Shown here piece after piece: positions 8,825 through 47,599 of a DNA stretch of 64,000 nucleotides. The stretch covers positions 1-64,000 of IMG/VR virus record IMGVR_UViG_3300042306_000967; one strand, written 5' to 3'. A model generated the notes under the pieces. It did not search any database, was not told where the DNA came from, and saw only the letters and a program-made list of their open reading frames with translations. Position 1 is the stretch's first letter, and each line of letters begins with the position of its first letter. The position numbers and the translations under genes are program-made. The DNA is from a virus (taxonomy: Duplodnaviria; Caudoviricetes).

Positions 8825-8840
8825 AGCTTACTATTTTATC

Positions 8841-8848
8841 TATAAATA
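8841..8848 (-). promoter_or_regulatory. Putative late-promoter motif TATTTATA
   Basis: About 16 nt upstream of the 8824 start. Confidence 0.5.
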
Positions 8849-8875
8849 TATGTGTTTTTAAAAAAAGTAACCAAT

Positions 8876-18913: not shown

Positions 18914-19357
18914 TTAAGGTTTAATTGGCCATTCAATATTAAACGGGTCTATTTGGGTTGATATATCTCTTAAATTTTGTCTGTATTCTGTCCAAACTGA
19001 TTTGATTTCAGTTGGTATATCCGATAATTGAGTCCAATCACACTCTAATAATAGTTGATTTCTAATATCTCTAACTTCAGCCCATTTTTCTTCTATTCTC
19101 GTATTGATTAATTCCTGGCTTGCATCGGTTGCTACCCAATTTTGATAATAAACTCCTTCAATTAATATAGGAGTTTCTTCGGACACTATTTTTGTGTAGT
19201 TATTTGGTTTGGGAGTCTGTCTTACTTCGTACATATCCCATGATAATAAATCATTTTCAGTAAGTTCCGATGGGAACGTTACATTTTTATTATCCGTTTT
19301 CAAATTTTCAATAGAATACGGATATTGAATTTCGCTATTTATAATTCTTAAATACAT
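18914..19357 (-). CDS. Tail fibre assembly chaperone (Phage_tail_APC / Tfa-like)
   Basis: WAEVRDIRNQLLLECDWTQL.D...W.EYRQNLRDI..Q..P..I.WP.KP. Confidence 0.85.
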   Translation of the reverse strand: MYLRIINSEIQYPYSIENLKTDNKNVTFPSELTENDLLSWDMYEVRQTPKPNNYTKIVSEETPILIEGVYYQNWVATDASQELINTRIEEKWAEVRDIRNQLLLECDWTQLSDIPTEIKSVWTEYRQNLRDISTQIDPFNIEWPIKP

Positions 19358-26200: not shown

Positions 26201-29200
26201 GGTAAATTGAGAACCAACAAGACCACCAGTAAATGGTGTAATAACTTTAAATCCTTCATCCGGTGAAACCGATGCGGTAACTGAACCAGATTTGATTTCA
26301 GTTGATATTAACGCATCTTCAGTCAATGCAGAACGAGGTATATTTCTCAAGTAAGTACCTTCACCATAATACGAAGAACCAGAACTTAAAAATAAACCAC
26401 CACTTACAATTTCATTTATATATAAACTTCCACTTATAGATAAAGAACCGGTAAATTGTGCACCAATTTGAGTACTATATGAACCAGATTCATCAACAGA
26501 AGATGTAAATGCAGTTTCAACTCTAAACCCATAATCAGGAGAAACTGAAGCAGTTACTGAACCCGATTTGATTTCAGTTGATATTAATGCATCTTCGGTA
26601 AGTGCAGAACGAGGTATATCAAAGAATAATCTACCAGATGAACTAATGAATGAACCACTAGCCATAAAGATACTACCACTAAAAGTAGAACCACTTTCCA
26701 ATGATTCAACTAAAAATCCTCTTTCCGGTGTTACAGATGCAGTAATACTACCAGTTGCAATACGGAATACTTCTTCCGATAATGCAGAACGTGGAATATC
26801 AAATAATCCTCTACCACTTCCAGTAAACATTGAAGCAGATATAGGACCAGATACATTTAAACTACCCGTAATTTGTGTATCACCTACAAATCTTATCTCC
26901 GATGGTATTTCCAAGAAATCAACTATATTAAGTTGTCCCACCATTGACGAATGTAACTGACAATTATAATATAAAACATTAGGTGAACCAGAATATGGAG
27001 TGAATATAATATCTCCACTATCATCACCGTTATTCGTAATACTTTGACTTACATTGTTAGATGTACCAGTTGAATTTGTAAATTTAATCCATAAAGGATG
27101 CCCTACAGCATTAACATTAAATGTATATTCTACACCTCTTACTAAAGTTAGGGTTGGATTTGAACCAGATACTAAACCATTACTTACAACATACGCACTA
27201 CTTCCATTGTTTGTTACATATATTGTTGTATCTATTAATTCAGTAGGTAATGGTCTTGCCGAAGATGATACTACAAAACTACCATCAATTCTAGAATGAA
27301 CATTTACTTCAAACCCGTTATTAGGTGAAATAGATGCAGTTGCACTACCACTAAATATTTTTGTTGAATCAATTGATAAATTAGCTAATGAAATGTTAGA
27401 AAGGTATCTACCATCACCAATAAAATAAGAACCACTTGTTGAAGTTACATCACCTCTTACTAAAAGACTTCCACTTATGTCAACACTTCCAGTAAATTCA
27501 GAACCACTATCTGCAGATTTTACTCTAAATCCAAAATCAGGAGAAACCGATGCGGTTACACTACCACTTGCTATTTTATTTGGTGCAAATGATAAAGCAG
27601 ATTCAGGTATATCAAATAAGTTTCTACCAGAACCACTAAAAGATGAACCACTTTGTAATTCTATATTACCATATGCAAATATACTTCCACTAACATCAAT
27701 TGAGCCAGAAAATTCAGAACCTAATAAAGTAGATTGAACAATGAATCCTCTATCAGGTAATGCAGATGCTGTTACCGAACCGGAAGCAATTCTAAATATT
27801 TCTTGCGATAATGCAGAGAATGGTATATTAGTTAATCCAGCACCACTACCACTAAATACCGATGCAGAAACACCAGATTTAAATAATGATGATTGATTTA
27901 CTACAAAAGAACCAGTTACAACTAAATTAGATTTTATATCAGTTGAACCGGTTACAATTAAATAATCTCTAATAGTTACACCGGTATTTACCAAAAATCC
28001 TTTATCAGGAGAAATAGATGCAGTTGCCGAACCACTAAATATTTTTGATGTATCTAAATCAGATATTGCCGCTACAGGTATATCAAATAATTTTTTACCA
28101 CTACCACTAAAAGATGAACCAGTTATTACTCTTACCTCTCCATAAAATGTAGAACCACTTTCTATTGAAGTTACTACGAATCCTTGATTTGGAGCCACCG
28201 AAGCGGTTACACTACCACTAACAATTTTCTCACTAAATAATGCATCAGGAGCAAGTGCTGTTCTCGGTATATTAAATAATCTTTCTCCACTACCACTAAA
28301 AGATGAGCCAGATGATATTTCTACACTTCCACTTACTAATATTGATGATGAAAATTCTGCTCTGTTAGCCCCTTCTAATCTAAATCCATATACAGGAGAA
28401 ACAGATGCAGTTACAGATCCAGATACAATTCTCGTTCCTTCTATTGATGGTACATTTCTTAATCTACTACCATCACCTTCAAAAGAACCGCTAAATTCAG
28501 GTGAAAATATTCTTTCCGCAGTAAGTGAACCAGATACTCTAACACTACCGGTTATATCACTACCTCTTTGTAAAGATTCAACTCTAAAGCCATAATCAGG
28601 AGAAACCGATGCAGTTACACTACCACTTGCAATTCTATATGCATCACCGGTAAATGCCGATTGTGGAATATCAAATAATCCTCTACCACTACCAGAGAAG
28701 AATGAACCACTTCCTAAAAATACACTACCACTTACCCCTAAACTTCCTGTTATATTAGTTTTTCCAATAAATGTAATTTCTGCAGGTATTTCAATTGCAT
28801 TCACAACATTGATAGCGCCTTGCATTGCACTATGAAACTGACAAGTGTAATATAAATTACTAGGTGTCAATTCATCTAAACTAAATATAATAGTTCCACT
28901 ATCAGTTCCATTATTTGTAACACCAGTGTTGTATGCACCATCCGTTCCGGTTTGAATACTTCCAGATTTTATCCAAAACGGATGCCCACTTGCATTTATA
29001 TTAAAGGTATATGTAACACCTCTTACTAATGTTAATGTTGGATTTGATGCACTTATTGCGTTACTAAACACATATGCACTAAATCCATTATTTGTTACAT
29101 CAAATACGGTGTTTAACGATTGACTTGGAATTGCATAGTTTGAAGATGAAACAATCATACTTCCACTAAACTTACTATAAACGTTTACATTAAATCCCTT

Positions 29201-31082: not shown

Positions 31083-31112
31083 TATAAATATCAAAAAAAT
31101 CACCTATAAATA
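31083..31112 (-). promoter_or_regulatory. Two tandem copies of the putative late-promoter motif TATTTATA (31083-31090, 31105-31112)
   Basis: Both lie in the 68-nt gap upstream of the 3599-aa gene. Confidence 0.55.
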
Positions 31113-31131: not shown

Positions 31132-32049
31132 TTATTCATTAGCAGATTCAAGTAGAGATAGAACTACTGATAGCTTAGTTGAGCCGGAAACTATAAATCC
31201 ATAACCTTCTTCTAATACTAATTTACCAGAAACTACCGGTGAAAGTGAATCTGCTACTGGTATTGTCACATTTGTTACCAATTCAACAGGTGGTTGTTCG
31301 GTAAATACTGGATTTTCAATGGTTGCTTTAATAACGTCCACTAAACTATTAACCAAATATATAGATGCCGAAATTCCCGCTTCAGTTCCATTTGTAAATC
31401 CACTTAATATAGATTGAGTAACCGCATTTTGAAATAATAATGGAGAATCAGCCGAACCGGTTGTTGATTGGTTTTTTATAATTTGATTAGATAGTACTTT
31501 TAAATAATCTAAAGCAAATATAGATGCAGAATATTCAGTTGTTGCAATCGCAGATACTCCATTTTTATCAAAATATGCTTTTGCTGCTTTATTTGTTCTG
31601 ATTGTTGTGTTATTAACTATATCATATTTTATCGCATCTACATCATCTAAAGTATTTTGTTCAAAGTATGATGATATAAAAGTAAATGGTGTTTCTGATA
31701 AACTATTTTGATTAGAAGTATATGCCGCTATTTCCTTTCTTAAAAATTGTCTATTAGCATTTAATAACAAAGATGCACTGGCAAAACTACCACTATATTC
31801 TGATAATGAAACAGACGCACTAATAAACGCACTACCACTATATATGTCAACAAATTGTGGAACAGGCAATTCTCTATTAGATGTTACTAATATAGTAACG
31901 GGTTGTGTTACTAAACTATTGTTTGTAATTTGACAAGATAGTACAATAGATGATACCCCAATCGGAGTTGCATATATTTCATCTTGTTCACCAGTCAATC
32001 CTGTTACTACTGACTGAAACCGATTTAAGGGTACAAAAACTTCTGCCAT
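31132..32049 (-). CDS. Adaptor-like virion protein: beta-sandwich related to the 110-aa ORF, with an inserted helical domain
   Basis: N-terminal IYATPIGVSSIVLSCQITN and C-terminal GKLVLEEG....S...LSVVLSLLE resemble the 110-aa protein; middle LL.ANRQFLRKEIAAY...DAIKYDI...T.KAAKAYF resembles the 4021-aa repeat. Confidence 0.6.
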   Translation of the reverse strand: MAEVFVPLNRFQSVVTGLTGEQDEIYATPIGVSSIVLSCQITNNSLVTQPVTILVTSNRELPVPQFVDIYSGSAFISASVSLSEYSGSFASASLLLNANRQFLRKEIAAYTSNQNSLSETPFTFISSYFEQNTLDDVDAIKYDIVNNTTIRTNKAAKAYFDKNGVSAIATTEYSASIFALDYLKVLSNQIIKNQSTTGSADSPLLFQNAVTQSILSGFTNGTEAGISASIYLVNSLVDVIKATIENPVFTEQPPVELVTNVTIPVADSLSPVVSGKLVLEEGYGFIVSGSTKLSVVLSLLESANE

Positions 32050-32077: not shown

Positions 32078-35000
32078 TTATATTTGTAGTGCCAATGAGA
32101 ACGGAGTTACCAATGAGAATAGAGATTTACTAAATGTTCTACCCACAAGAGTACCGGTTGCCTGGTTAATACTTAAACCAGTACCAATTCTAAAGTCACC
32201 ATCTTGGTTACCGGAAGTAAAGAATATTCTACCACCACCCAATTCGGTAATTTCAAATGCCGGATTCGCAACACCACTACCACCCTGATTCGGTGGAAGT
32301 GCTTTAAACGTCACACCACTACCATTATAAGAGTAGTCAATACCAGTTGCCACAATCAATGAACCAAATGCTTCCAATGGCGCACCTGCTGCTATAAACT
32401 CTGCTCTTGTTCTTAAATATCTATTAGTTTCAAGAGTTTCTAATAACTGGTCTCTAGTCACTGCAATTGCACTTCCATATTGTCCATCGTAGTATGAAGA
32501 TGCTGCTCTAATTCCTCTCTCATTTCCACCATATAATAAGTCAGTAACACACGCATCTACAATAAATCCAGTATCACGTGAACAACTCGCCTCATTATAT
32601 ACTAAATATGGGAATGCTCCATTTGTGTATCCAATTGCTCTTTGCTTTAATTCTTCTTTACCAAGTTTTAATCGTTCTGCCGCTTGTCTTCTTTTAGTTG
32701 ATGGGGCCAAATAAGTTAATAACGTATTTGCAACTATCTTTTCAGAAAGTCCTCTTGCAAAGTTAATACCATCTACAGTTTGTTTTTTCTGTCCATTATT
32801 ATCACTATAACTATCTACGATTGCTACCGATGGGAATTTGTAGTAGTAAGAACCTGCCTCAATACTTCTTTCATTACCGCCATATACTAAGTCAGTTCTA
32901 ATTGCATCTATAATAAATCCTAAGTCACGAGAACAACTTACTTCATTGTATTTTAATCCACTCCAAGATGAAGATAAGAATGTTATAGTTTCTTTTTGTA
33001 TTAATTCTTTATTATCTGTCAATAATTTTGCTGTTGTCAATAAAGATGCAGATGGAACTAAATAGGTTGGATTGGTTATTACCTTTTTAGATAATTTTCC
33101 AGCGTATTTGATACCAGTAAGTGTTGGGTCTAATTGATTTTGAGTTGATGGAACACCTGATTTAATAGCGTTAGAAGGATATAAATAATAATACTGTCCT
33201 GCTATCAAACTTCTTTCTTGTCCACCATATAATACATCGGTTGCCGCTGCATCTATTAGATATCCAACATCACGTTTACAAGTTATTTCGTTATAATAAA
33301 CACTACTCCAAGAAGAAGATACATATGCAATAGTTTCAGCTGCCACAAATGCCTTATTTTTTCTCAACAAGTCAAATGATGCAGATGCTTCCAATGATGC
33401 TGTTACAAATGTAGTACCACCAACAATCTTTTGTGCTACTCTACTTGCGTATCTAATACCATCAACCGTTTGTCCTAATTGCCCTACACCATCACCATCT
33501 CCCAATAAGGTTGCTTTTGATGGATATTTGTAATAGAAATCACCAGCTATTACACTTCTTTCGTTTCCTCCGTATAATAAATCAGTAGTTGCTGCATCTA
33601 TTATGTATCCTAAATCTCTAGCACATTTTACTTTATCATATTCAAAGGTACTCCAACTTGCAGTTAAGTAAGCCATACTTTCACTTACAATAAATGTTCT
33701 ATTGTTTCTTAATAATGCTACTGATGATGAAACAGCAAATGAAGCAGTATTAAATGAACTATTCTGAACTAATTTAGTTGCTAAACCTTTTGCGTAATCA
33801 ATTGCAGTTATAGTTGGGTCTAATTGTGAACCAGTAACTTTTGATGGAATGTTCCAATAAAAAATTCCAGCTAAAGAACTACTATGGTTTCCACCATAAA
33901 GAATATCACCTGCTACAGCCTCAACGATATATCTAATATCCCTAGAACATACTGAACTATCATATTCAAATCCACTCCAAGAAGATGATAAGAATGCTAT
34001 ACTTTCACTTTGGATAAATCCTATGTTTTGAGTTAATAAATCATATGCCGCAATCTTTGATAAATCGTTTGATGGAGTTAAACCGGTAGATTGAGATACA
34101 GGCGTAGGTATCAACCAATTGTTTATAGAAGCAGATACTAATCTAGCTGCATATTTAATTCCATCTATTGTTTCAGTCAATTGAGTATCAGTAGCCTCCG
34201 ATGGATATAAGTAATAGAACTCACCCGCTTTAGAACTTCTTTCATTTCCACCATATAATAAATCAGTTGCTACTGCATCAATTATATATCCAACATCTCT
34301 CTTACATTTTTCTTCGTTATAGTAGAAATCAGGGTATTTAGCGTTTATATACGCAACACTTTCACTTTGTATAAACTTCTTATTATTTCTAATTGAATTA
34401 TAAGAATTTATAGTAGAAGATGAAGTTACATAGAATTGTGCATTTTTAATTACATTCAATGCCAATCCTTTTGCGTATCTAATACCAGTTAAAGTTGGTT
34501 CTAATTGAGAATCAGTAGCTTGGGATGGGAAATCATAATAATATTTACCAGCCACTACACTTCTTTCATTTCCACCATATAATAAATCGGTTCTTACCGC
34601 ATCTACAATATATCCAATATCTCTAGCACACTTAATTTCATCATATCCAAACTCGCTCCAAGAAGAACTTACATACGCAATACTTTCACTTTGAATAAAT
34701 GCCTTATTTTTAGTAAGTGCTTCAAAAGATGCTGATATAGTAGCGGATGCTGATATATGAGTTAATAAAATATTTTGTACAACTTTTTCAGCCACTCCAC
34801 TTGCGTATTTTAAAGCCGTTATAGTTTGGTCTAATTGTGAACCAGTAGCTTGAGATGGATAATCAAAATAGAATTTACCATTAAATAACGATGCCGAATT
34901 ACCACCATATAAAAGGTCAAATGCCGAACCACTAATGATTCCTGCTAAATCTCTCTCACATTTACTTTGAGTATATTCGAATGCACTCCAAGACGAACTC

Positions 35001-38000
35001 ATATATGCAATAGTTTCATCAACTATAAATTTAGAGTTACTTACTAATAAGTTATATGCTGAATTTATTTTTGTATTTGAATTTGCTATCGGATATGTTG
35101 ATGGTCTAAATCCAATAGAAGATGTTCCATTGTTTAATAACACATCAATTACAGTTGCAAAAGATGCTGATACTAATTTACCTTGCAATCTTGCCCCACC
35201 ACTTCCACTTATAAGTTGTGGTGTTTCAGTTATTTTTATAGATGATGATGCGTTTGGTGTAATTGTAGAAATTACATCAACACCATTTTCTACGATATCC
35301 AAAATAACCCCAAATCCAGATGATACTTTATTTATTTCAAATTGTCCAGCAGTTTGTGTATTTGCAATTGGTAGTAATCCCGTTTTTGTAATTGAACCAC
35401 TAGCATTTGTTACCAATGTAGGAATTGAACCCGTACCATTTGCAATTATATTAATCACATTTCCAAATGAAGAACTTACAACATTTGTTTCAGTTGGGAA
35501 TGTACCACTACCAGTAATTTGAGTATCTGAACTAATATTCCATAAGTTTGGAGTATTTAGATTGAACCCATATAAAGATGGGAAATTAGAAACTAATGAA
35601 TCCGCCAAAGATGCAGAACCATTCTCAATAATATCGGTAATCAAATTAAATGAAGCAGTAATTAAACCAATTTCAGTTGTACTTGCCGCACTTGCTGATG
35701 TGATTGGAGAAATGTTATTTATTTTTATTCCACTTTCAACATTTGATATAATCGTTGGTTTTACTTCAACACCACCTTCAATAATTTTAGTTACAATACT
35801 AAACGATGAAGAAACATTTGTTACTTCGGTAGAACTTCCACTATTAGCAGATGTAAATTGAGTTACACCAGATACCTTTATGTTACCATCGGCATTTGAT
35901 GTTAGTATTGGTGAATTTAATTTTATATTTTGTGCTATTGCTTTAGCTAATGCTTTAGCGTAATCAACACCATCCACAGTTTCTCTAACCTGCGTACTCT
36001 TTGTTGCCAAAGATGGATACAAATAATAATATTGTCCAGCTATAACACTTCTCTGATTTCCACCATAGAAAGTATCAGTTATAACTGCATCTAAAATATA
36101 CCCAACATCACGTCTACATTTTTCTCTTAAATAAACTAAATTAGGGAAGAATGCATCTATGTATTGTACAGTTTCGTTTTGTATAAATCTTTTGTTCTGT
36201 CTTAATAAATTAACAGATGATGTTACAAATCCGGTTGGTGATACTAATACTTTATTTGATACTATATTTTGTGCAGTACCAGCTACATATTGTATTCCAT
36301 CAAGTGTAGGTCCTTTTTGAGTTGCAGTGGTTGGTGAAATAGAACCCGTTAGAATTGCTGCAGATGGATATAAGTAATAATATTCTCCAGCTTTAGAACT
36401 TCTTTCGTTTCCACCATATAATAAGTCAGTTCTTACTGCGTCTATAATGTATCCAATATCTCTCTTACAAGTAGTTTCATTATAAGAGAATCCATCATCA
36501 CCACTCCAAGAAGAAGATAAGTAAGCAATTGATTCACTTTGTATAAACTTCTTATTATTAGTTAATAAATTAAATCCAGCTAATTCAGATGTTGTTGGAG
36601 ATTGTAATAATATATTTGCTACAATCTTTTCAGTAATTCCTTTAGCGTATTTTATACCATCTAAAGTTTGATTTAATTGTCCACCAGTATCACCATCATT
36701 ACCTACGGTTGCCAATGAAGGATATAAGTAATAGTACTCACCCGCTTCAGCTACTCTTTCGTTTCCACCATATAATACATCAGTTGCTACCGCATCTAAA
36801 ATATATCCTACATCTCTCCTACAAGTTGCCTCATTATAATTAAATGAACTCCAAGAAGAAGATAGATATGCAATAGTTTCATCTTGTATAAATGATTTAT
36901 TATTGAATATCAATTCGTATGCTGAAAGATTTGAATTAGATGCCGATGCAAATGTTGAATTCTTTAATATCTTATCAGTTAAACCTTTCGCATGTTTGAT
37001 TCCACTTAATGTTGCCCCTAATTGAGATGTTGTTGCTTGTGATGGATATTCATAATAGAATACACCGGCATTTATACTTCTCTGATTACCACCATAAACT
37101 ATATCAGTTGTTACCGCATCTAAAATATGGCCCACATCTCTCTTACAAGTTAATTCATTGTAAGATGTTGTACTCCAACTAGCAGATACATAACTTATAA
37201 CTTCGTTTTGTATAAATTCTCTATTATTATAAATTAATTCTTTTGCTTGTAATTTATTTTGAGATACTTTAGTAAATGTATTTCCTCTTAAAATTTTGAA
37301 TGCAATATCTCTAGCATATTCAATACCAGTAACAGTCTCCTGTATTTGTGAACCAGTTGCTTCAGATGGGTATTTATAATAGAATACTCCAGCATTTATT
37401 GTTCTTTCATTTCCACCATATAATAAATCAGTAGAAACTGCATCTATAATATGTACTATATCTCTCTTACAAGTTGATTCAACGTATTGATGTGTACTCC
37501 AAGATGAACTTATGTAAGGTATTACTTCATTCTTAATAAGTTCTTTATTATTAACTAATAAACTATACGCATCTTTAATTTGCGCCGATTGAGTTACAAA
37601 TAAAGTATTTAATACTATTTTTTGTGCTAAACGGCTAGCGTAGTTTATTCCATCAATTGTTTGGTTTAATTGTGCACCCTGCGCTTGAGATGGGAATTGA
37701 TAATAATAAACACCATTGAACACCGATGCTGAATTTGCGTTCCATAATAAATCTTCAGCTGAACCACTCAATATAAATCCTAAATCACGTTTACACTTAC
37801 TTTCATCGTAAGATGCAGTTGACCAAGAAGAACTTAAATATGCAATACTTTCCGATACTATGAAATCTAAATTATTTTTTAGAATAGTATAAGCCGCTAT
37901 TACATTTGAAGATGATATTGATGATGTATATAAAGTTACAATCGGTAATGAACCCGTTCCATTTGCTATTATATTTGTTACAATAGAAATTGATGCAGAT

Positions 38001-41000
38001 ATTGCATTAGCTTCCGTTTGTGTTGCCGGTGTTCCTCCTAAATATTGAGTAGCATCCGTTACTTTAATATTATTTACATTTGAAGTAATAGTAGGTAATG
38101 AACCAGTACCATTTTCTAATATGTTTATAATTGTATCAAAACTTGCAGATATATTTCTTGCCAACGAAGATGATATAATTACCGAAGATGTATATTGATT
38201 TGTATCTGTTATTTTTACTAATCCGTCAACATTTTTTATCAACGTAGGTAAAGAACCAGTTCCATTTTCAACAATATCTAAAACAATATCAAAATTATTA
38301 TTTGAAGATGTAAGATATGTGGATGATATTGATGCGGTTGTTATGTAACTATTTGTAGTAGTTCGTTTAATTAAAGAATTTACATTTGTTACAATAGTTG
38401 GAATTGAACCTGTGCCATTTTCTACAATATCAAGTACGATATCAAATCCAGTAGTTACTTTTGCCTTTTCAGAATTAGATGGAGTTATTGATGATGTTAT
38501 TTGTGTACCACCAATAAAGTTTATACCTCTATTTGTATTTTTAACAATAGTTGTTGGTATTGAACCAGTTCCGTTTGATACGATATTAAGTATATTACCA
38601 AATGAAGCTGATACAATAGATTTATCGTTTGTTACTACTGATATAGATGATGTAATTTGTTGAGCGTTAGTTGCTTTAATTCCAGCAATAGTATTTAACA
38701 CCACATTAGGTGCTGTATTACTTCCACTTTCAATTACTTTAGATACAATATCAAAACCATCTTCTATTTCTTTTCCACCAATCGCTACTAATTTTGCCAA
38801 ACCTTTTGTGAAGTTTAGTGAATCAATTGTTTCTTCGGATTGAACTCCGGTAGCTTGAGATGGATATAAATAATAGAATCGTCCAGCAGTTATACTTCTT
38901 TCATTACCACCATAAACCAAATCAGTAATTACAGCATCTACAATAAATCCAGCATCTCTATAACATTTACTTTCAATATAATCTAAATTAGGATATGTTT
39001 CGTTTGCGTAATCAACGGTATTTTGTTGTAAAAATGCTCTATTAGTTTTTAATAAACTTGCCGCATTTAATACTGATGTAGATGGTGCCGATAAAACAAC
39101 ATTTGTAATTATATTTTGTACTAATTGATTTGAGTAGTTTACACCAGTTATAGTTGGGTCTAATTGTTGTGTTGCCGAAGGTACTCCACCCACAATTGCT
39201 GCTGATGGGTATCTATAATAGTATTCTCCTGCAAATCTAGTTCTTTCGTTACCACCATATACCAAGTCAGTTCTTACAGCATCTAAAATATATTTAGTAT
39301 CTCTTAAACATTTAGCCTGATTATATTCCGCTTCACTCCAAGAAGAACTTACATAAGCAACTACTTCGTTTGCAATTAAGTTTTTGTTTTGTAGTATTAA
39401 ATTACTTGCATTTACTTTATTTCCATCCGCTGAAACAAATACCGAACCAGTAACAATCTTTTGTATCATTCTACCTGCATAGTTGATACCATCTAACGTT
39501 GGAAGTAATTGAGACCCCGTTGCTTCGGATGGATATAAATAATAAAATATACCAGCATTTCTACTTCTTTCATTACCACCATAAACCAAGTCAGTTCTGA
39601 TTGCGTCTATTATGTACCCAACATCTCTTTTACAAGTTAATTCATTATACGGATGTTCACTCCAAGATGAACTCAAATACGCAATTGTTTCATCTTGTAT
39701 GAATGATTTATTGTTTACCAATAACGATGCCGCATTTAAAGAGTTGGCACTTACCGTAGTGAATTCTATGTTTTGAATTACTTTTTGTGCTAAACGGCTA
39801 GCGTAGTTGATACCATCCAATGTTTGTTGTAGTTGAGCTCCTTGTGCTTGCGATGGATATTCCCAATAAAATAATCCGTTAAATATAGATGCTGAATTTG
39901 CGTTCCATATTAAATCTTCCGCAGAACCACTCAATATAAATCCTAAATCACGTTTACATTTAGTTTCATCATATTCAAACCCAGCCCAAGAAGAACTTAA
40001 ATACGCAATAGTTTCATTTTGAATAAATGGAATATTGTTTTTAAGTATCTCATATACAGCTACACTATTAGATGATGTTATTCTATTTGTATATGGTTGG
40101 AATGTAGGTGCTGAAAACTCTCCGCCTTCAATTATCTTTGTTACTATTGATATTGATGCTGATATAAAGTTTACATCGTTTACACTTGCCGAATAAGATG
40201 CTGAAATGTATTGTGGTGTATTTGTTACTTTGATACTTGCACTTACATTTGATATAAGAGTAGGTACAAAAGATAACCCACCTTCTAATATATCGGTGAT
40301 TACTTTTATTGAAGAACTTAATTGTGTACTTTCAGTAGATGTTCCATAATAACCAGAACCAGTTATGTATTGTGGTGTATTGGTTACCTTTATATTTGAG
40401 TTTAGATTTGAAACTAATGCACCTAATGAACCAGTACCATTTGTTATTATAGTTGCTACATATGCAATTGATTCGGATATTGAATTTCCAACAGAACCAC
40501 TAACTGCAAATGAAGATGTTATTTGTGGTGTACCAGTTACGGCAATTGCATTTGCTTGAGACGATGTGAATAAAGGCTCTGCTGCTAATCCACCACCAAT
40601 AATCGTATTTACAATATCAAAACTCTTACCAATTTTATCCACTTCATCTGGTGTTGTATAAGATGAAGTTATTTGAGAACCAGTAGTTACATTTATTGGA
40701 TTGTATTTATTCCAATTTAATCCAGTATTCTGTGCCAATAATGATTTAATTGAACCCAATCCTCTTGCCACAATTCCTTCTATAATTGAAAATGAATTAC
40801 CAACCGAAGTTTGTTCAATAGTACCACCACCAAAAGATGATGTTATATTTGTTAGTCCGGATAATCTAAAGTTTCTCTCATCATTATAAACAATACGAGG
40901 TGTATCTAATATTTGATTTTGAACAATAGTATCTCCAATAATTTTTGCATATCGAATACCCGCAATAGTTGATGATTTTTGTGTTTTTGTAGCCTGTGAT

Positions 41001-44000
41001 GGGAAGTCATAATAATATCTACCCGCAATCACACCTCTTTCAAGACCACCATAAAGTAAATCAGTTGCCACATTATCAACAATATAACCAACATCTCTCC
41101 TACAAGTTGCTTGATTATATTTTAAGTTTGGAAATGCAACATTAATAAATTGAATTGTTTCGTTTTGAATTAATTCTTTATTATTAATTAAATTATTATA
41201 TGCAGATAAAGTTGATGCATTAGGTGATGTAAATGTTTTTCCTTTTAATAGATTATCAACTAATCCACTAGCATATCTTATACCATCCACCGTTTGTCCT
41301 AATTGTCCAGTACCATCACCATCGCCTTGTACAATTGCCAATGAAGGATATAAATAATAGTATTCACCGGCAGTTATACCTCTTTCATTACCACCGTATT
41401 TTACATCAGTTGCTACCGCATCTAATATATAACCAGTATCACGTCTACACTTTACTTCGTTATAATAAAAATTAGACCAAGATGATGATAGATAAGTTAT
41501 AACTTCATTTTGTATAAATGTTCTATTATCTCTGATTGTATCCCAAACATCAATTACTTCATTGTTTGGTTCTACATATACTCTACCTCTAATCAAATTT
41601 AATGCAACACCAGCTGCGTGCTTAACTGCAGTTAATGTTGGTCCTAATTGTGTTGTAGTTGCTTCGGATGGGTATTGATAATAAAATAAACCATTTCTAA
41701 TACTTTCTTCGTTTCCACCATATAAAAGGTCTTTTGCTACACCATCTACAATATATCCAACGTCTCTTTTACAAGTTTCTTCTGGATAGTAAAATTCACT
41801 CCAAGAAGAAGATACAAATTGAATAACTTCATCTTTAATAAACTCTTTGTTGTTTATTAATATTTCGTATGCAGTTATAATATCAATATCCGTTTTTGCT
41901 ATTGAACCACTTTGTATTGTAGCCGGATATGTTAATGTATTTTTAATTAAGTCAAATGGAGTTGTAGATGAATTTACTATGTTAATCTCACCGCCCATAG
42001 AACTTCTATTCTGTGATACATAATATAATTTATTTGGTGCATTGTATGGTACCGTAAAGGTTATTGTTCCTCTACTATCACCATTATTAACCATACCAAT
42101 ATTATAATCAAATTTTTCTCCAATGCCTTCTACTTGCTGTGTTCTTATCCAAAACGGATATTCAAGTCCACCAAATGTTTCTATCGCATCAACATTGAAT
42201 TTGTAGGTTTCCCCTCTAAATAAAGTTAATGTAGGATTACTACCAATTCCTTCAAAATCAAATGAAGAACTATTTGTGTTTGTTATTACAAATGATTTTT
42301 GGTGATTGTTTGGTATTGGTATAATATTACTACCAGTACCATTTGCCAAAATATTATAAACAATACTAAAACTTGCACTTACTGAATTTATTGTTGCCAA
42401 TGATGATGTCACACCAAGCATTACTTGTTCGGTATTTCCGGCTTTAATACTAGCACTTGTATTTGAAATATACGTTGGTTTAACAGAAAGGCCTGATTTA
42501 ATAATATTAATTATATTGTTAAACGATGAACTTACCGATGAAGTATAGTTTGTTGCTACACTACCTATTGGTTGTATTACATCGTTGCCTATTTGTCTAC
42601 TTGCACTTGTGTTTGGTCTAAAATTAAACGAACCCGTACCATTTGCTAATATACTCAAGATAGCCGCATAAGATGCGCTTATTTGAGTTAAATCTGCAGT
42701 TGATGCTGATATAGATGATGTTATTTGTTCTGCTCCTAATATATTGTAAGGAGAATCAAATCCATATCCTTTTATAGAACTTTTTGCCAACAAAGTTGGA
42801 AAATTTGATACACCACTATCAACAATTGCACTTATTAATTTATAATCGGCAGATATTTCTTCTGCTGCAGCTGTTGATAATGCAGTTCCAGCGGATACTC
42901 TACTTTGAGTGTATAAAGCAGGTGACGTTAAACGAATACCCTCATCAGTATTTAATTTTGTTATTGTAGGTAATCCGTTTTCTAATCCTTTATTAAGTAC
43001 ATCAACAACGCAACTCCAAGTTCCTCTCACAGAATCTCTCGCAGCGATATTACCACCACTACCAGATATAAAACGAGAACCACTAGCATACATACCATAT
43101 AAACCAAACGAAATGTTTGAGTTGTTTAGTGTAGCGTGTCCACCATTGTTTACTCTAATTGAATAATATGAGAAGTTATTAAAGAAAGATACCAACTGAA
43201 TGAAACCTCTACCATTTACCAAACATCCCACACCATTTGGAGAAATTTGAGTATAAGCATCCAATACCATTGAAGCTAGTGGAGAATCTGGATCTATCAC
43301 ATCACCATTAACATAAAGACCTCCGCCGCCTGGTGGGATATCTTCATAAAGTTCGGTGAATGAATTCTCTTGATTTGAAATTTGAGAACAGTTCTGAACG
43401 TATGGTGAAGTTGTAATAAATGCACCAGGTTGGAAAGCAACCGCAAATCCTTTTTCAGGATTTATTTGGTCTGGATATAATCTCAAACCACCCATTGTTA
43501 CTTCCGCAATATAACATCCAGAGTTTACATAGAAAAGGTCTTCTGTGGGGTTTTTCGCGTTAATCTTGGTGATACGCAAACCGGCACCCCAAATGGTTGT
43601 GTTTTTAGGAAGAATCACAGGATTATCCTCTAAATACGTTCCAGCCTGTACTTTGATTACATATCCATTGAATATTGAACCAGTATCAAATCCATATCTA
43701 CCATCATACCCCGGAGATGCCAATGAAGCCGCTCTCTTAATTGTACGAAGTGGATATTGAATACTTCTACCATCGTTTGTATCATCCCCATCAGTTGAAG
43801 ATACATACAAAGTTGGAACGTTAGCACCAAAATCTTTTGCAAGAATACCAGCATATCGTTGAGTATCAACCGCTAATAAAGCGTTTGATGCGGTTACCGC
43901 AAGAACGGTTTCAGGTGCTGCAACTTTTAATTGTCCATCAATTGTTAATGAGCCAGTTAAAAAAACCGAACCAGTTATTTCACTTTTAGAACCCGTTTCT

Positions 44001-44143
44001 GTTCCTAAAAAGAAACTTTTAGATACGAATAATGAGCCAGATATAATGGCATCGTTTCCAACATTAACGTTTTGTCTAATGTTAAGTGAACTACTTATAT
44101 CCTGTTGTTCTTCAATTTGTTTACGTGGTATCAGTCTTGCCAT
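32078..44143 (-). CDS. Giant structural protein (4021 aa): pectin-lyase-like beta-helix interrupted by 21 helical CxRD repeats, spacer repeats and a degenerate cupredoxin-like domain
   Basis: LYVSSTDGDDTNDG.S...P.RTIKRA..VIKVQAGTYLEDNPVILP..TTIWGAGLR; C-terminal GRIFFTSGNQDGDFRIG..LSINQATG...F.KSLFSLVTPFSLAL, as in large T4-like phage structural proteins. Confidence 0.8.
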   Translation of the reverse strand: MARLIPRKQIEEQQDISSSLNIRQNVNVGNDAIISGSLFVSKSFFLGTETGSKSEITGSVFLTGSLTIDGQLKVAAPETVLAVTASNALLAVDTQRYAGILAKDFGANVPTLYVSSTDGDDTNDGRSIQYPLRTIKRAASLASPGYDGRYGFDTGSIFNGYVIKVQAGTYLEDNPVILPKNTTIWGAGLRITKINAKNPTEDLFYVNSGCYIAEVTMGGLRLYPDQINPEKGFAVAFQPGAFITTSPYVQNCSQISNQENSFTELYEDIPPGGGGLYVNGDVIDPDSPLASMVLDAYTQISPNGVGCLVNGRGFIQLVSFFNNFSYYSIRVNNGGHATLNNSNISFGLYGMYASGSRFISGSGGNIAARDSVRGTWSCVVDVLNKGLENGLPTITKLNTDEGIRLTSPALYTQSRVSAGTALSTAAAEEISADYKLISAIVDSGVSNFPTLLAKSSIKGYGFDSPYNILGAEQITSSISASTADLTQISASYAAILSILANGTGSFNFRPNTSASRQIGNDVIQPIGSVATNYTSSVSSSFNNIINIIKSGLSVKPTYISNTSASIKAGNTEQVMLGVTSSLATINSVSASFSIVYNILANGTGSNIIPIPNNHQKSFVITNTNSSSFDFEGIGSNPTLTLFRGETYKFNVDAIETFGGLEYPFWIRTQQVEGIGEKFDYNIGMVNNGDSRGTITFTVPYNAPNKLYYVSQNRSSMGGEINIVNSSTTPFDLIKNTLTYPATIQSGSIAKTDIDIITAYEILINNKEFIKDEVIQFVSSSWSEFYYPEETCKRDVGYIVDGVAKDLLYGGNEESIRNGLFYYQYPSEATTTQLGPTLTAVKHAAGVALNLIRGRVYVEPNNEVIDVWDTIRDNRTFIQNEVITYLSSSWSNFYYNEVKCRRDTGYILDAVATDVKYGGNERGITAGEYYYLYPSLAIVQGDGDGTGQLGQTVDGIRYASGLVDNLLKGKTFTSPNASTLSAYNNLINNKELIQNETIQFINVAFPNLKYNQATCRRDVGYIVDNVATDLLYGGLERGVIAGRYYYDFPSQATKTQKSSTIAGIRYAKIIGDTIVQNQILDTPRIVYNDERNFRLSGLTNITSSFGGGTIEQTSVGNSFSIIEGIVARGLGSIKSLLAQNTGLNWNKYNPINVTTGSQITSSYTTPDEVDKIGKSFDIVNTIIGGGLAAEPLFTSSQANAIAVTGTPQITSSFAVSGSVGNSISESIAYVATIITNGTGSLGALVSNLNSNIKVTNTPQYITGSGYYGTSTESTQLSSSIKVITDILEGGLSFVPTLISNVSASIKVTNTPQYISASYSASVNDVNFISASISIVTKIIEGGEFSAPTFQPYTNRITSSNSVAVYEILKNNIPFIQNETIAYLSSSWAGFEYDETKCKRDLGFILSGSAEDLIWNANSASIFNGLFYWEYPSQAQGAQLQQTLDGINYASRLAQKVIQNIEFTTVSANSLNAASLLVNNKSFIQDETIAYLSSSWSEHPYNELTCKRDVGYIIDAIRTDLVYGGNERSRNAGIFYYLYPSEATGSQLLPTLDGINYAGRMIQKIVTGSVFVSADGNKVNASNLILQNKNLIANEVVAYVSSSWSEAEYNQAKCLRDTKYILDAVRTDLVYGGNERTRFAGEYYYRYPSAAIVGGVPSATQQLDPTITGVNYSNQLVQNIITNVVLSAPSTSVLNAASLLKTNRAFLQQNTVDYANETYPNLDYIESKCYRDAGFIVDAVITDLVYGGNERSITAGRFYYLYPSQATGVQSEETIDSLNFTKGLAKLVAIGGKEIEDGFDIVSKVIESGSNTAPNVVLNTIAGIKATNAQQITSSISVVTNDKSIVSASFGNILNIVSNGTGSIPTTIVKNTNRGINFIGGTQITSSITPSNSEKAKVTTGFDIVLDIVENGTGSIPTIVTNVNSLIKRTTTNSYITTASISSTYLTSSNNNFDIVLDIVENGTGSLPTLIKNVDGLVKITDTNQYTSSVIISSSLARNISASFDTIINILENGTGSLPTITSNVNNIKVTDATQYLGGTPATQTEANAISASISIVTNIIANGTGSLPIVTLYTSSISSSNVIAAYTILKNNLDFIVSESIAYLSSSWSTASYDESKCKRDLGFILSGSAEDLLWNANSASVFNGVYYYQFPSQAQGAQLNQTIDGINYASRLAQKIVLNTLFVTQSAQIKDAYSLLVNNKELIKNEVIPYISSSWSTHQYVESTCKRDIVHIIDAVSTDLLYGGNERTINAGVFYYKYPSEATGSQIQETVTGIEYARDIAFKILRGNTFTKVSQNKLQAKELIYNNREFIQNEVISYVSASWSTTSYNELTCKRDVGHILDAVTTDIVYGGNQRSINAGVFYYEYPSQATTSQLGATLSGIKHAKGLTDKILKNSTFASASNSNLSAYELIFNNKSFIQDETIAYLSSSWSSFNYNEATCRRDVGYILDAVATDVLYGGNERVAEAGEYYYLYPSLATVGNDGDTGGQLNQTLDGIKYAKGITEKIVANILLQSPTTSELAGFNLLTNNKKFIQSESIAYLSSSWSGDDGFSYNETTCKRDIGYIIDAVRTDLLYGGNERSSKAGEYYYLYPSAAILTGSISPTTATQKGPTLDGIQYVAGTAQNIVSNKVLVSPTGFVTSSVNLLRQNKRFIQNETVQYIDAFFPNLVYLREKCRRDVGYILDAVITDTFYGGNQRSVIAGQYYYLYPSLATKSTQVRETVDGVDYAKALAKAIAQNIKLNSPILTSNADGNIKVSGVTQFTSANSGSSTEVTNVSSSFSIVTKIIEGGVEVKPTIISNVESGIKINNISPITSASAASTTEIGLITASFNLITDIIENGSASLADSLVSNFPSLYGFNLNTPNLWNISSDTQITGSGTFPTETNVVSSSFGNVINIIANGTGSIPTLVTNASGSITKTGLLPIANTQTAGQFEINKVSSGFGVILDIVENGVDVISTITPNASSSIKITETPQLISGSGGARLQGKLVSASFATVIDVLLNNGTSSIGFRPSTYPIANSNTKINSAYNLLVSNSKFIVDETIAYMSSSWSAFEYTQSKCERDLAGIISGSAFDLLYGGNSASLFNGKFYFDYPSQATGSQLDQTITALKYASGVAEKVVQNILLTHISASATISASFEALTKNKAFIQSESIAYVSSSWSEFGYDEIKCARDIGYIVDAVRTDLLYGGNERSVVAGKYYYDFPSQATDSQLEPTLTGIRYAKGLALNVIKNAQFYVTSSSTINSYNSIRNNKKFIQSESVAYINAKYPDFYYNEEKCKRDVGYIIDAVATDLLYGGNERSSKAGEFYYLYPSEATDTQLTETIDGIKYAARLVSASINNWLIPTPVSQSTGLTPSNDLSKIAAYDLLTQNIGFIQSESIAFLSSSWSGFEYDSSVCSRDIRYIVEAVAGDILYGGNHSSSLAGIFYWNIPSKVTGSQLDPTITAIDYAKGLATKLVQNSSFNTASFAVSSSVALLRNNRTFIVSESMAYLTASWSTFEYDKVKCARDLGYIIDAATTDLLYGGNERSVIAGDFYYKYPSKATLLGDGDGVGQLGQTVDGIRYASRVAQKIVGGTTFVTASLEASASFDLLRKNKAFVAAETIAYVSSSWSSVYYNEITCKRDVGYLIDAAATDVLYGGQERSLIAGQYYYLYPSNAIKSGVPSTQNQLDPTLTGIKYAGKLSKKVITNPTYLVPSASLLTTAKLLTDNKELIQKETITFLSSSWSGLKYNEVSCSRDLGFIIDAIRTDLVYGGNERSIEAGSYYYKFPSVAIVDSYSDNNGQKKQTVDGINFARGLSEKIVANTLLTYLAPSTKRRQAAERLKLGKEELKQRAIGYTNGAFPYLVYNEASCSRDTGFIVDACVTDLLYGGNERGIRAASSYYDGQYGSAIAVTRDQLLETLETNRYLRTRAEFIAAGAPLEAFGSLIVATGIDYSYNGSGVTFKALPPNQGGSGVANPAFEITELGGGRIFFTSGNQDGDFRIGTGLSINQATGTLVGRTFSKSLFSLVTPFSLALQI
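32400..41880 (-). repeat. 21 copies of a ~105-aa helical repeat, N(K/R).FIQ.E.IAY.SSSW..F.Y.E..C.RD.GYI.DAV.TDL.YGGNERS..AG..YY.YPS.AT..Q...T..GI.YA, in blocks of 3, 4, 6 and 8
   Basis: CxRD motifs counted by eye; blocks separated by a second ~45-50-aa repeat (QITSS...SF.IV..II.NGTGS.P). Confidence 0.9.
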
Positions 44144-47591: not shown

Positions 47592-47599
47592 TATAAATA
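47592..47599 (-). promoter_or_regulatory. Putative late-promoter motif TATTTATA
   Basis: About 25 nt upstream of the neck gene. Confidence 0.55.

What the first reader, a model, noticed from the sequence alone, without database searches (positions are those of the whole stretch)
32400..41880. Giant virion protein with 21 tandem phycobiliprotein-like domains, each keeping the bilin-attachment C-x-R-D motif
Seen: 21 helical repeats of about 105 aa with invariant Cys-x-Arg-Asp, in a protein otherwise poor in Cys, e.g. KCARDIGYIVDAVRTDLLYGG near 34575-34635. Known: C-phycocyanin alpha reads KCARDIGYYLRMVTYCL.AGG, where Cys84 binds the bilin, Asp87 is its counter-ion and Arg86 contacts it. The upstream A..LL..N..FI..E...Y....(F/Y)P segment also parallels the preceding helix of this globin-like fold. 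Inference: a phage structural protein built as an array of globin/phycobiliprotein-fold domains that might covalently carry tetrapyrroles (UV or light shielding, antioxidant, light sensing, or haem/bilin bait). Together with the neighbouring copper domains, this could be an undescribed pigmented or redox-active virion appendage, and is the best candidate for a new system here. Caveats: similar repeats occur in other large T4-like phage structural proteins, no bilin reductase or lyase gene is in this window, and the promoter evidence points to a non-cyanobacterial host.
Basis: partly seen in the sequence, partly recalled or inferred. Interest (0 to 1): 0.9.

Follow-up and report, generated by a model that had tools for sequence, protein, structure and literature searches.

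The report
Phycobiliprotein-like domain array in cyanophage fibre
A giant structural protein of a T4-like cyanophage is built from 21 shortened copies of the light-harvesting phycobiliprotein fold that keep the pigment-attachment residues, so the virus particle may carry pigments, though no pigment has yet been shown.

Summary
ORF 32078..44143 (-) encodes 4021 aa with 21 C-x-R-D motifs, against a mean of 0.036 in 2000 shuffles. They sit in 108-119-aa helical repeats grouped 3+4+6+8.

The phycobiliprotein (PBP) fold reading is supported. Two AlphaFold2 models of different repeats (pLDDT 85 and 89) returned only PBP-type structures among the Foldseek PDB rows printed, with TMq up to 0.80 but E never below 0.10. 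A profile-profile comparison aligns the repeat Cys with PBP Cys84 (P 1.7e-6). Shuffled controls and 31 unrelated families score far lower.

Across 1295 repeats from 151 proteins, Cys, Arg and Asp are 96-98% conserved and tend to be lost together. The family appears only in cyanophage records (196 of 50,697 phage genomes). A close relative encodes haem oxygenase and a bilin reductase.

Pfam does not detect the domain at domain level. Bilin attachment is inferred, not shown. I found no paper describing this.

It is a new variant of a known fold in a new setting. It gives a testable link to cyanophage bilin-synthesis genes and to light-dependent adsorption.

The parts
32078..44143 (-). Giant ORF, 4021 aa (P0001), a tail-fibre-like or virion structural protein
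   Evidence: Open frame. Matches phrog_4527 'short tail fiber protein' at 9e-185 and phrog_5342 'tail fiber protein' at 4e-166.
41900..44143 (-). N-terminal region, residues 1-748, holding 4 non-motif Cys. It is not repeat-like and its fold is unassigned.
   Evidence: No Pfam hit at E<=1 and no PDB sequence hit at E<=1. The best phrog_5342 stretch is residues 112-216.
40907..41899 (-). PBP-like repeats 1-3
40085..40906 (-). Spacer 1, Ser/Thr-rich (27%), Cys-free, with 'NGTGS'-type short repeats
38768..40084 (-). PBP-like repeats 4-7
37922..38767 (-). Spacer 2, with five units of about 51 aa ending in ENGTGS(I/L)PT
   Evidence: No meaningful Pfam hit.
35921..37921 (-). PBP-like repeats 8-13. 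Repeat 8 (37598-37921) was modelled.
35087..35920 (-). Spacer 3, Ser/Thr-rich and Cys-free
32387..35086 (-). PBP-like repeats 14-21. Repeat 15 (34433-34756) carries KCARDIGY and was modelled. This block also holds the one extra Cys, residue 3865.
32081..32386 (-). C-terminal 102 aa, conserved at the end of related giant proteins
   Evidence: The best phrog_3442 stretch is residues 3928-4019, matching the end of that profile. No Pfam hit.
31465..31788 (-). A single divergent PBP-like domain (residues about 88-195) in the next ORF, 31132..32049 (305 aa, P0152). By my reading of the sequence, Cys, Arg and Asp are replaced by Phe, Gln and Asn, while the D57 equivalent is kept.
   Evidence: hmmsearch E 3.5e-7 and the sequence. 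The same arrangement is seen in the relative G001.

Best explanation
The 21 repeats are shortened phycobiliprotein (PBP) domains. Each keeps helices A, B, E, F and G of the globin-like PBP fold. Each lacks the N-terminal X-Y hairpin and the last helix H, and has a B-E loop 11 residues shorter. Strung together with Ser/Thr-rich spacers, they form the long body of a giant tail- or baseplate-associated virion protein of a T4-like cyanophage.

The residues PBPs use to hold the Cys84 bilin are the best-conserved positions of the whole phage family: the Cys for the thioether, the Asp that pairs with the pyrrole nitrogens, and the Arg that contacts a propionate (roles recalled from PBP structures). 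The residues PBPs use to form alpha-beta monomers are gone. My working model is that each domain carries a bilin, phycoerythrobilin or phycocyanobilin, on its Cys. The pigment would come from host enzymes or from the phage's own haem oxygenase and bilin reductase. Attachment would be autocatalytic or by a host S-type lyase. The fibre would then be pigmented, and its most attractive use is as the light-sensing element behind light-dependent adsorption of cyanomyoviruses.

Shown here: the repeat architecture, the predicted fold, the motif equivalence, the conservation pattern, the restriction to cyanophages, and bilin genes in a close relative. Inferred: homology by descent, virion location of this particular protein, bilin attachment, and any light-related function.

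My odds: same fold about 0.9, homology about 0.8, bilin actually bound about 0.4.
For: FOLD. AlphaFold2 of repeat 15 with a 21-row alignment gave pLDDT 85.0 and pTM 0.78. Repeat 8 with a 66-row alignment gave pLDDT 88.8 and pTM 0.80. Both show the same five helices. In Foldseek against 350,542 PDB chains, all 43 rows printed for model 1 are PBPs, with TMq up to 0.73. For model 2, 39 of 41 printed rows are PBP or phycobilisome entries. The other two are 'Bacterial fluorescent protein' and smURFP. TMq is 0.51-0.80 and rmsd about 3 A. Independently built BFVD models of cyanophage tail and structural proteins match my model at TMq 0.74-0.83 in 22 of the first 24 rows (the other two, short alignments, 0.51 and 0.56).

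SEQUENCE. A repeat profile searched against 177,635 PDB sequences gave 9 hits at E<=10. Eight of the 9 are phycocyanins, aligned over C-x-R-D-x-G-Y...G-G. hhalign of the 21 repeats against 198 unique CpcA/CpcB-type proteins gave probability 89.9%, P 1.7e-6 and score 41.2. Cys43 aligns with Cys84, and the distance from the Cys to the G-G is the same 18 residues.

CONTROLS. The reversed target scored 10.7. Twenty column shuffles scored at most 15.6. Twenty block shuffles that keep the motif scored 22-25. Of 32 real protein families from the same cyanobacterial loci, only the PBP family scored high (39.0, P 5e-6). The other 31 scored 7.1-15.8.

SELECTION. In 1295 near-full-length repeats from 151 proteins, C43 is 96% conserved, R45 96% and D46 98%. 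Among 1241 repeats with the Cys, R45 is kept in 1220 and D46 in 1240. Among the 54 without it, R45 is kept in 27 and D46 in 34, while D57 is kept in all 54. The stand-alone domain in the next ORF lacks all three but keeps D57. No other column carries Cys in more than 73 of 1295 repeats, so an intradomain disulfide is unlikely. All 198 PBPs carry C.RD. PBP Arg93 and Tyr97, both 100% conserved, are not kept in the phage repeats.

CONTEXT. Homologues were found only in cyanophage records: 196 of 196 matching records among 50,697 phage genomes. None was found in one genome each of 185,579 prokaryote species, though only one peptide pattern was scanned. The relative G001 has adjacent Heme_oxygenase (54 bits) and Fe_bilin_red (75.5 bits) genes, and a 4187-aa orthologue with 22 repeats.

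LITERATURE (passages seen). [quoted passage not shown] Bilin genes occur almost only in myocyanophages (PMC10452541). [quoted passage not shown] P-HM2 'gp7' carries 2 copies with C-x-R-D. Podovirus P-SSP7, which adsorbs in the dark, has none (best E 0.28).
Against: No chromophore has been observed, and I could not inspect model coordinates for a pocket.

Database-wide searches never reached formal significance. The best Foldseek E is 0.10, with 0 matches at E<=0.001. PDB profile E values are 0.34-0.84.

Pfam PF00502 passes only as a summed whole-protein score (24.7 against a cut-off of 22.2), with 0 stretches passing. Only 2 of 21 single repeats match, best E 0.059. None of 8 homologues matches at E<=0.1, and similarly summed but clearly spurious hits occur there (FAM195, 27.2 against 25). 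G001 gives no PF00502 match. The ESM Atlas feature search gave no usable hit.

The B-E loop, which covers the bilin in PBPs (recalled), is 11 residues shorter, and helix H is missing, so the pocket may be open or collapsed. The other top-conserved residues, D57 (100%), Y73 (98%) and T88 (92%), have no PBP counterpart. They could form a polar core that fills the site.

No lyase gene was found in G001 (CpeT and CpeS both absent), though that record is only 70% complete. The common phage lyase type, CpeT, serves the Cys153 site in PBPs, not Cys84 (PMC10452541 passage).

The co-loss of C, R and D is partly confounded by overall divergence, since Y73 is also lost in 17 of the 54 Cys-less repeats. 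The link to light-dependent adsorption rests on very few phages and is confounded by phylogeny (myovirus against podovirus).
Confidence: 0.42

Rival explanations
1. Apo structural module. The domain descends from a PBP or shares its fold, but it no longer binds pigment. It serves only as a rigid helical bead that lengthens a fibre. Cys, Arg and Asp are kept because they now form part of a buried polar network together with D57, Y73 and T88.
For: The fold evidence is the same as above. D57, Y73 and T88 are as conserved as the triad and have no PBP equivalent. The B-E loop is shortened and helix H lost. No lyase was found in G001. Repeat number varies freely: 21 here, 22 in a close relative, and 1 to 36 across the family. 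That is typical of length-setting structural repeats. I found no report of coloured cyanophage preparations.
Against: A lone Cys conserved in 96% of 1295 repeats, at roughly 20-50% overall identity, is unusual for a purely structural role. C, R and D are lost together while D57 never is, which points to a functional unit separate from the fold core. The residues kept are exactly those that bind the bilin in PBPs, while the PBP assembly residues are lost. The family is confined to phages whose hosts make bilins.
Confidence: 0.3
2. Different chemistry at the Cys. The conserved Cys, with D46, D57 and Y73, binds a metal ion (Fe, Cu or Zn) or haem. Or it forms inter-chain or inter-repeat disulfide or other cross-links that harden the fibre in sea water.
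For: The conserved Cys, Asp, Asp, Tyr and Thr set resembles a metal-ligand set. By helical periodicity, C43, D46, I50 and D57 lie on one face of helix 3 (my inference). Iron sites in phage tail fibres are known (recalled, T4 gp37).
Against: No second conserved Cys exists for an intradomain disulfide. The total of 21 motif Cys is odd, and D57 lies about 14 residues, roughly 21 A, along the helix from the Cys, which is far for one metal site (inference). Neither idea explains why Arg45 is co-conserved and co-lost with the Cys. Neither explains why the motif and its spacing copy the PBP bilin site.
Confidence: 0.13
3. No real relationship. The repeat is a generic five-helix bundle, the C-x-R-D-x-G-Y match is chance or convergence, and AlphaFold2 was drawn towards PBPs by the motif.
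For: All database-wide E-values are above 0.1. Pfam fails at domain level. The Atlas search was blank. Block-shuffled controls show that the motif alone gives over half of the hhalign score, 22-25 of 41.
Against: Of the Foldseek PDB rows printed for two models built from different repeats, 82 of 84 are named PBP or phycobilisome entries; the other two are 'Bacterial fluorescent protein' and smURFP. One of the modelled repeats lacks the G-G and has CKRDLGF. The real alignment scores 41 against 22-25 for the motif alone, so the flanking helices contribute in the right order. Of 32 real families, 31 score 7-16 and only the PBP family scores 39. Twelve conserved columns are shared, not only the triad. 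BFVD models made by others give the same fold.
Confidence: 0.1

Closest known systems
Phycobiliproteins (CpcA/CpcB, ApcA/B, CpeA/B; Pfam PF00502)
   Same: Predicted helices A, B, E, F and G match, with TMq up to 0.80. Cys-x-Arg-Asp sits at the start of helix E, aligned with Cys84/Arg86/Asp87, and the Cys to G-G spacing is the same. Conserved columns are shared: A40, L44, N47, Y74, K83, G89, G102, G114 and A132.
   Different: The repeat is 108 aa rather than about 160-175 aa. There is no X-Y hairpin and no helix H, and the B-E loop is 11 aa shorter. PBP Arg93 and Tyr97 are not kept. The domains are fused head to tail up to 36 times in one chain instead of forming alpha-beta trimers. They sit in a phage structural protein. 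The Pfam model does not detect them at domain level. Chromophore status is unknown.
PBP-type domains outside classical antenna subunits: the ApcE core-membrane linker PBP domain and engineered smURFP (properties recalled; smURFP also appears as a Foldseek hit)
   Same: A PBP-fold domain is used as one module of a much larger protein (ApcE). These domains are able to attach a bilin without a lyase (recalled for ApcE and smURFP). That shows a lyase-free route is possible in principle.
   Different: ApcE has one PBP domain and is part of the phycobilisome. Its attachment Cys is not at position 84 (recalled). There is no tandem array and no viral context.
Giant tail, baseplate or 'structural' proteins of T4-like cyanophages (phrog_4527, phrog_5342; for example P-HM2 'gp7 baseplate wedge subunit', S-PM2 T4-GC 830 protein, S-CAM1 'tail protein')
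   Same: They contain the same repeat family. The same kind of genome neighbourhood is seen here: a collagen-like giant ORF, a tail-fibre assembly chaperone, and tail-fibre and structural PHROG hits in neighbouring ORFs.
   Different: Public names say only tail, fibre, baseplate, structural or hypothetical protein. None that I saw refers to a PBP-like domain. Copy number ranges from 2 in P-HM2 to 21 here and 36 elsewhere. Here the gene is not preceded by a gp6-sized gene as in P-HM2, so equivalence to gp7 is not established.

Membership tests
Phycobiliprotein family (Pfam PF00502 Phycobilisome protein) | Significant match of the domain to the family HMM | tested here: not met
   The whole protein scores 24.7 bits against a cut-off of 22.2, but 0 stretches pass. 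Only 2 of 21 single repeats match, best E 0.059. None of 8 homologues matches at E<=0.1. The relative G001 gives 0 matches at E<=0.001.
Phycobiliprotein family | Globin-like PBP fold (helices X, Y, A, B, E, F, G, H) | tested here: inconclusive
   The core helices A, B, E, F and G are predicted and match PBPs at TMq 0.6-0.8. X, Y and H are absent. These are predictions only, and no Foldseek E is below 0.10.
Phycobiliprotein family | Cys84-x-Arg86-Asp87 chromophore motif at the start of helix E | tested here: met
   Present in 21 of 21 repeats. Aligned to PBP residues 84, 86 and 87. Conserved at 96-98% in 1295 repeats. All 198 PBPs carry C.RD.
Phycobiliprotein family | Covalently bound bilin | not testable with these tools
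   This needs spectroscopy, Zn-fluorescence or mass spectrometry of the protein.
Phycobiliprotein family | Alpha-beta monomer and trimer assembly through the X-Y helices and conserved Arg93 and Tyr97 (roles recalled) | tested here: not met
   The X-Y region is absent. The columns aligned to Arg93 and Tyr97 (100% in PBPs) read Asp (79%) and variable residues in the phage repeats.
T4-like cyanophage tail-fibre or structural protein families (phrog_4527, phrog_5342, phrog_701, phrog_18802) | Significant HMM match | tested here: met
   E values are 9e-185, 4e-166, 1.3e-58 and 7.2e-47. The PHROG names are annotations, not tested functions.
T4-like cyanophage tail-fibre or structural protein families | Presence in purified virions | not tested
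   Virion proteomes exist for S-PM2, Syn9 and S-SM1 (PMC3037559 passages). The table that lists the proteins (Table S8) is a supplement I could not open.
T4 gp7 baseplate wedge protein | Position after gp25 and gp6 and before gp8, and similarity to gp7 | tested here: inconclusive
   P-HM2's repeat-bearing gene is annotated gp7 and sits between gp6 and gp8. Here the upstream ORFs are 128 and 118 aa with no family hit, and the N-terminal 748 aa has no PDB or Pfam match.

The most novel reading that the evidence does not exclude
Cyanomyovirus particles carry arrays of covalently bilin-loaded mini-phycobiliprotein domains on their tail or baseplate fibres. Here that would be 21 per chain, and up to 36 elsewhere. 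The phage-encoded haem oxygenase, PebS/PcyA and perhaps CpeT-like genes would then exist at least partly to pigment the virion. The pigmented fibre would be the long-sought light sensor that makes adsorption of phages such as S-PM2 and P-HM2 light-dependent. This would be the first virion-borne photoreceptor.
Probability: 0.25. Interest if true: 0.97.

Novelty: new variant of a known kind. Interest (0 to 1): 0.8.

Why it matters
T4-like cyanophages are among the most abundant viruses in the sunlit ocean. Two of their features have lacked an explanation for some fifteen to twenty years.

First, they carry bilin-synthesis and lyase-like genes even when the host has no phycobilisome. This is called a 'mystery' in PMC3037559.

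Second, some of them adsorb only in the light, independently of photosynthesis. PMC6628666 names light-sensitive tail fibres as one possibility.

A phage-specific family of at least 1310 protein clusters built from PBP-like domains that keep the bilin-site residues gives both questions a concrete molecular candidate that can be tested. Even if the domains turn out to be pigment-free, this would be a clear case of a host light-harvesting fold recruited as a building block of a virus particle. A 108-aa minimal PBP core could also interest people who engineer bilin-based fluorescent proteins.

Tried and rejected
1. Pfam as proof. The whole-protein PF00502 hit looked decisive at first. No single stretch passes, and equally 'significant' summed hits to unrelated families appear in homologues. 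I count it as weak evidence.

2. ESM Atlas feature search of repeat 15. No usable hit.

3. N-terminal 748 aa, C-terminal 102 aa and spacer 2 against Pfam, and the N-terminal region against PDB sequences. Nothing meaningful. The 'copper domain' idea and a gp7 assignment therefore stay untested beyond sequence.

4. megablast of the gene against phage genomes. No match.

5. Scan of one genome each of 185,579 prokaryote species for the repeat. None of the 11 pattern matches was confirmed. Only one peptide pattern was used, so absence is not proven.

6. Lyase genes (CpeT, CpeS) in the relative G001. None found. The record is 70% complete.

7. Correlation with light-dependent adsorption. I checked only P-HM2 (2 copies) and P-SSP7 (none). 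That is too few, and the comparison is confounded by phylogeny.

8. T4-type late promoter TATAAATA. There are 23 matches against 13 expected, but most intergenic ones lie on the + strand, so they read TATTTATA in the sense of the genes. I drew no conclusion about the host from promoters.

9. I did not use complex prediction, the look-up of sequencing runs or read laying. I could not inspect model coordinates, so pocket geometry and exposure of the Cys are untested.

10. Papers. I saw only passages (find mode) of PMC1079782, PMC3037559, PMC10452541, PMC6628666, PMC9229316 and bioRxiv 10.1101/167650. Gasper et al. 2017 and Jia et al. 2010 were seen only as reference entries. Six searches found no paper describing a PBP-like domain or a bilin in a phage structural protein. 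The library lacks most subscription journals. Supplements, such as Table S8 of PMC3037559, were closed.

Full report
WHAT IS THERE

The window (about 34% G+C, all long ORFs on the minus strand) holds an ORF at 32078..44143 (-) of 4021 aa. It has 26 Cys, and 21 of them are in C-x-R-D motifs. The motifs are 108-119 aa apart within four blocks of 3, 4, 6 and 8 repeats. The blocks are separated by 382-390 aa. Shuffling the protein 2000 times gave a mean of 0.036 such motifs and at most 2.

The repeats cover residues 749-3919, which is window 32387-41899. They share 53% mean column identity. Y38, C43, R45, D46, D57, Y73, S78, Q84 and T88 are invariant. Between the blocks lie Cys-free, Ser/Thr-rich spacers (27-28% S+T), with a second short repeat of about 51 aa in spacer 2 that ends in NGTGS-x-PT.

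FOLD

I modelled repeat 15 (the KCARDIGY copy) with the 21 repeats as its alignment. The result was pLDDT 85.0, pTM 0.78 and five helices at 5-16, 18-32, 40-60, 64-75 and 85-107. Foldseek against 350,542 PDB chains printed 43 rows, and all 43 are phycobiliproteins: phycocyanin, phycoerythrin, allophycocyanin, phycoerythrocyanin, cryptophyte antenna beta subunits and phycobilisome chains. TMq reached 0.73, at rmsd 3.1-3.7 A for the better superpositions.

To guard against the model having been pulled by the CpcA-like string, I modelled repeat 8. It has CKRDLGF, no G-G, and is 48% identical to repeat 15. I used a 66-row alignment that includes IMG/VR relatives. The result was pLDDT 88.8, pTM 0.80 and the same helices. 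Of the 41 Foldseek rows printed, 39 are PBP or phycobilisome entries. The other two are 'Bacterial fluorescent protein' and smURFP. TMq was 0.51-0.80.

In neither search did any match reach E<=0.001 (best 0.10). The fold assignment therefore rests on TM-scores, probabilities and the uniformity of the hit list, not on E-values.

BFVD models of cyanophage tail and structural proteins, built by others, fill the first 24 rows at probability 1.00, with TMq 0.74-0.83 in 22 of them and 0.51-0.56 in two short alignments (S-CAM1, Syn30, S-WAM2, S-H9-1, S-PM2, S-ShM2 and uncultured phages).

SEQUENCE RELATIONSHIP TO PBPs

An unbiased search of the repeat profile against all PDB sequences gave 9 hits at E<=10. 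Eight are phycocyanins (E 0.34-0.84), aligned over swseleYneakCkRDvgyivdavatDllYgg against ...kakCaRDigyylrmvtyclvvGG.

I fetched cpcA loci from cyanobacterial genomes using that motif and collected 198 unique CpcA/CpcB-type proteins. I then ran hhalign against the repeat alignment. The result was probability 89.9%, P 1.7e-6 and score 41.2. Repeat positions 4-62 aligned to PBP residues 34-103, that is helices A, B and E. Cys43 aligns with Cys84, the B-E loop is 11 residues shorter, and the Cys to G-G distance is the same.

Controls:
- The reversed target scored 10.7.
- Twenty column shuffles scored at most 15.6.
- Twenty block shuffles that preserve the motif scored 22.2-25.3. The motif therefore supplies a little over half the score, and the correctly ordered flanks supply the rest.
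- Among 32 real protein families from the same loci, including linkers and HEAT-repeat proteins, only the PBP family scored high (39.0, P 5e-6, 98 columns). The other 31 scored 7.1-15.8.

A permissive alignment carries the match on through helices F and G and ends before helix H. The X-Y hairpin has no counterpart.

Against this, Pfam PF00502 does not recognise the domain:
- It passes only as a summed score without any passing stretch.
- It matches 2 of 21 single repeats at E about 0.06.
- It matches 0 of 8 homologues, where spurious summed hits to other families also occur.
- It finds nothing in the relative G001.

The ESM Atlas search was blank.

CONSERVATION PATTERN

A profile search of 1.84 billion representative proteins found 1310 proteins at E<=1e-3, 944 at E<=1e-10 and 528 at E<=1e-30. 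The listed proteins carry up to 36 repeats, the maximum being in a protein of 6382 aa.

In 1295 near-full-length repeats from 151 proteins, the most conserved columns are:
- D57, 100%
- D46, 98%
- Y73, 98%
- C43, 96%
- R45, 96%
- T88, 92%
- Y38, 85%

Cys, Arg and Asp behave as a unit. With the Cys present (1241 repeats), Arg is kept in 1220 and Asp in 1240. Without it (54 repeats), Arg is kept in 27 and Asp in 34, whereas D57 is kept in all 54.

The small ORF just downstream (31132..32049, 305 aa) holds one more, divergent copy (E 3.5e-7). In it the three residues read Phe, Gln and Asn, and D57 is kept. The relative G001 shows the same arrangement.

The two families share these conserved columns (repeat/PBP numbering): A10/40, L14/44, N17/47, Y38/74, K42/83, C43/84, R45/86, D46/87, G48/89, G61/102, G70/114 and A91/132. 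PBP Arg93 and Tyr97, both 100% conserved and recalled to be part of the alpha-beta interface, are not kept.

So the chromophore-site residues survived and the assembly residues did not. D57, Y73 and T88 have no PBP counterpart. They may be a new structural core, or they may fill the old pocket.

CONTEXT AND HOST

PHROGs place the protein in 'short tail fiber', 'tail fiber' and 'virion structural' families. Its neighbours include:
- a 3599-aa ORF with collagen repeats (E 3.5e-100);
- a tail-fibre assembly chaperone domain;
- ORFs with tail-fibre, head-tail adaptor and virion-structural PHROG hits, and one sub-threshold Pfam hit to the gp15 tail-sheath stabiliser (23.3 against a cut-off of 25).

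tblastn against 50,697 phage genomes found homologues only in records named Synechococcus, Prochlorococcus, Cyanophage or Marine. That was 148 records at E<=1e-5 and 196 at E<=0.01. They are annotated as tail, short tail fibre, baseplate wedge or structural proteins. In P-HM2 the 4454-aa 'gp7' carries two copies, and both have C-x-R-D. A pattern scan of prokaryote genomes found none.

The window's own genome is not held. The nearest held record is G001. It shares 32% of the window's 31-mers, is 134 kb long and is 70% complete. It has a 4187-aa orthologue with 22 repeats. On the same contig it has adjacent haem oxygenase and ferredoxin-dependent bilin reductase genes. It has no CpeT or CpeS. 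The window itself has no such genes.

HOW IT MOST LIKELY WORKS

Shown: a cyanophage-restricted family of giant structural proteins built from truncated PBP-fold domains, with the bilin-site triad under strong, coupled selection.

Inferred: the simplest reading of that selection is that the site still does what it does in PBPs, namely hold a bilin on the Cys. Bilins are available in every cyanobacterial host. Many cyanomyoviruses add their own ho1, pebS or pcyA. The purpose of those genes is described as a mystery, and cpeT is found in 12 of 16 genomes with an unresolved role (PMC3037559). A review notes that these genes are almost confined to myocyanophages (PMC10452541). That is the same group that carries the repeats.

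A pigmented fibre would also offer a mechanism for light-dependent adsorption. [quoted passage not shown] P-HM2, which does not adsorb in the dark, has the domain. Podovirus P-SSP7, which does adsorb in the dark, has none. Two phages do not make a correlation.

I put bilin binding at about 0.4. The apo structural-bead reading is at about 0.3. Other Cys chemistry is at about 0.13, and 'no real relationship' is at about 0.1.

NOVELTY

Public names for family members are tail, fibre, baseplate, structural or hypothetical protein. Pfam does not flag them. Six full-text searches found no paper on a PBP-like domain or a bilin in a phage structural protein. The library is incomplete and supplements were closed.

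I class this as a new variant of a known fold in a new setting. If the pigment is real, it would be a new kind of virion function.

Noticed in passing
window 20264..31063 (-): A second giant ORF (3599 aa) lies directly downstream. It has a very strong Collagen triple-helix signal (E 3.5e-100, 6 stretches). Its region 22001-24000 has a locally high G+C of 49%, against about 34% elsewhere.
   Followed up: partly
window 18914..19357 (-): A 147-aa ORF with a Phage_tail_APC (tail-fibre assembly chaperone) domain, E 2.1e-15. It lies between two giant ORFs, which fits a fibre-gene cluster.
   Followed up: no
window intergenic spacers, e.g. 31083-31112, 47592-47599, 8319, 8841, 18890, 58342: TATAAATA occurs 23 times against 13 expected. 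Most intergenic copies are on the + strand, so in the sense of the minus-strand genes they read (A)TATTTATA(G/A), about 20-45 nt upstream of start codons. This may be a promoter-like motif that differs from the T4 late consensus.
   Followed up: partly
window about 41950-42290 (residues about 620-730 of P0001): By eye, this segment resembles the C-terminal loop of a cupredoxin with the copper ligands replaced (…YYVSQNRSSMGGEI…). No Pfam or PDB sequence hit supports it.
   Followed up: partly
window 35087-35920, 37922-38767, 40085-40906: The spacers between PBP-like blocks contain their own Ser/Thr-rich repeat of about 51 aa, ending in (E/A)NGTGS-x-PT. There are five consecutive units in spacer 2. 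Their fold and role are unknown.
   Followed up: partly
G001:C1 about 6-19 kb (loci L003-L005): The orthologue in the close relative has 22 repeats in 4187 aa, against 21 in 4021 aa here. Repeat number therefore changes between genomes that share about a third of their 31-mers.
   Followed up: no
L126 (P-HM2) 3595-16959: In P-HM2 the repeat sits in a 4454-aa gene annotated gp7 (baseplate wedge), between gp6 and gp8. The same domain is thus used in baseplate proteins as well as in fibre-like proteins.
   Followed up: partly
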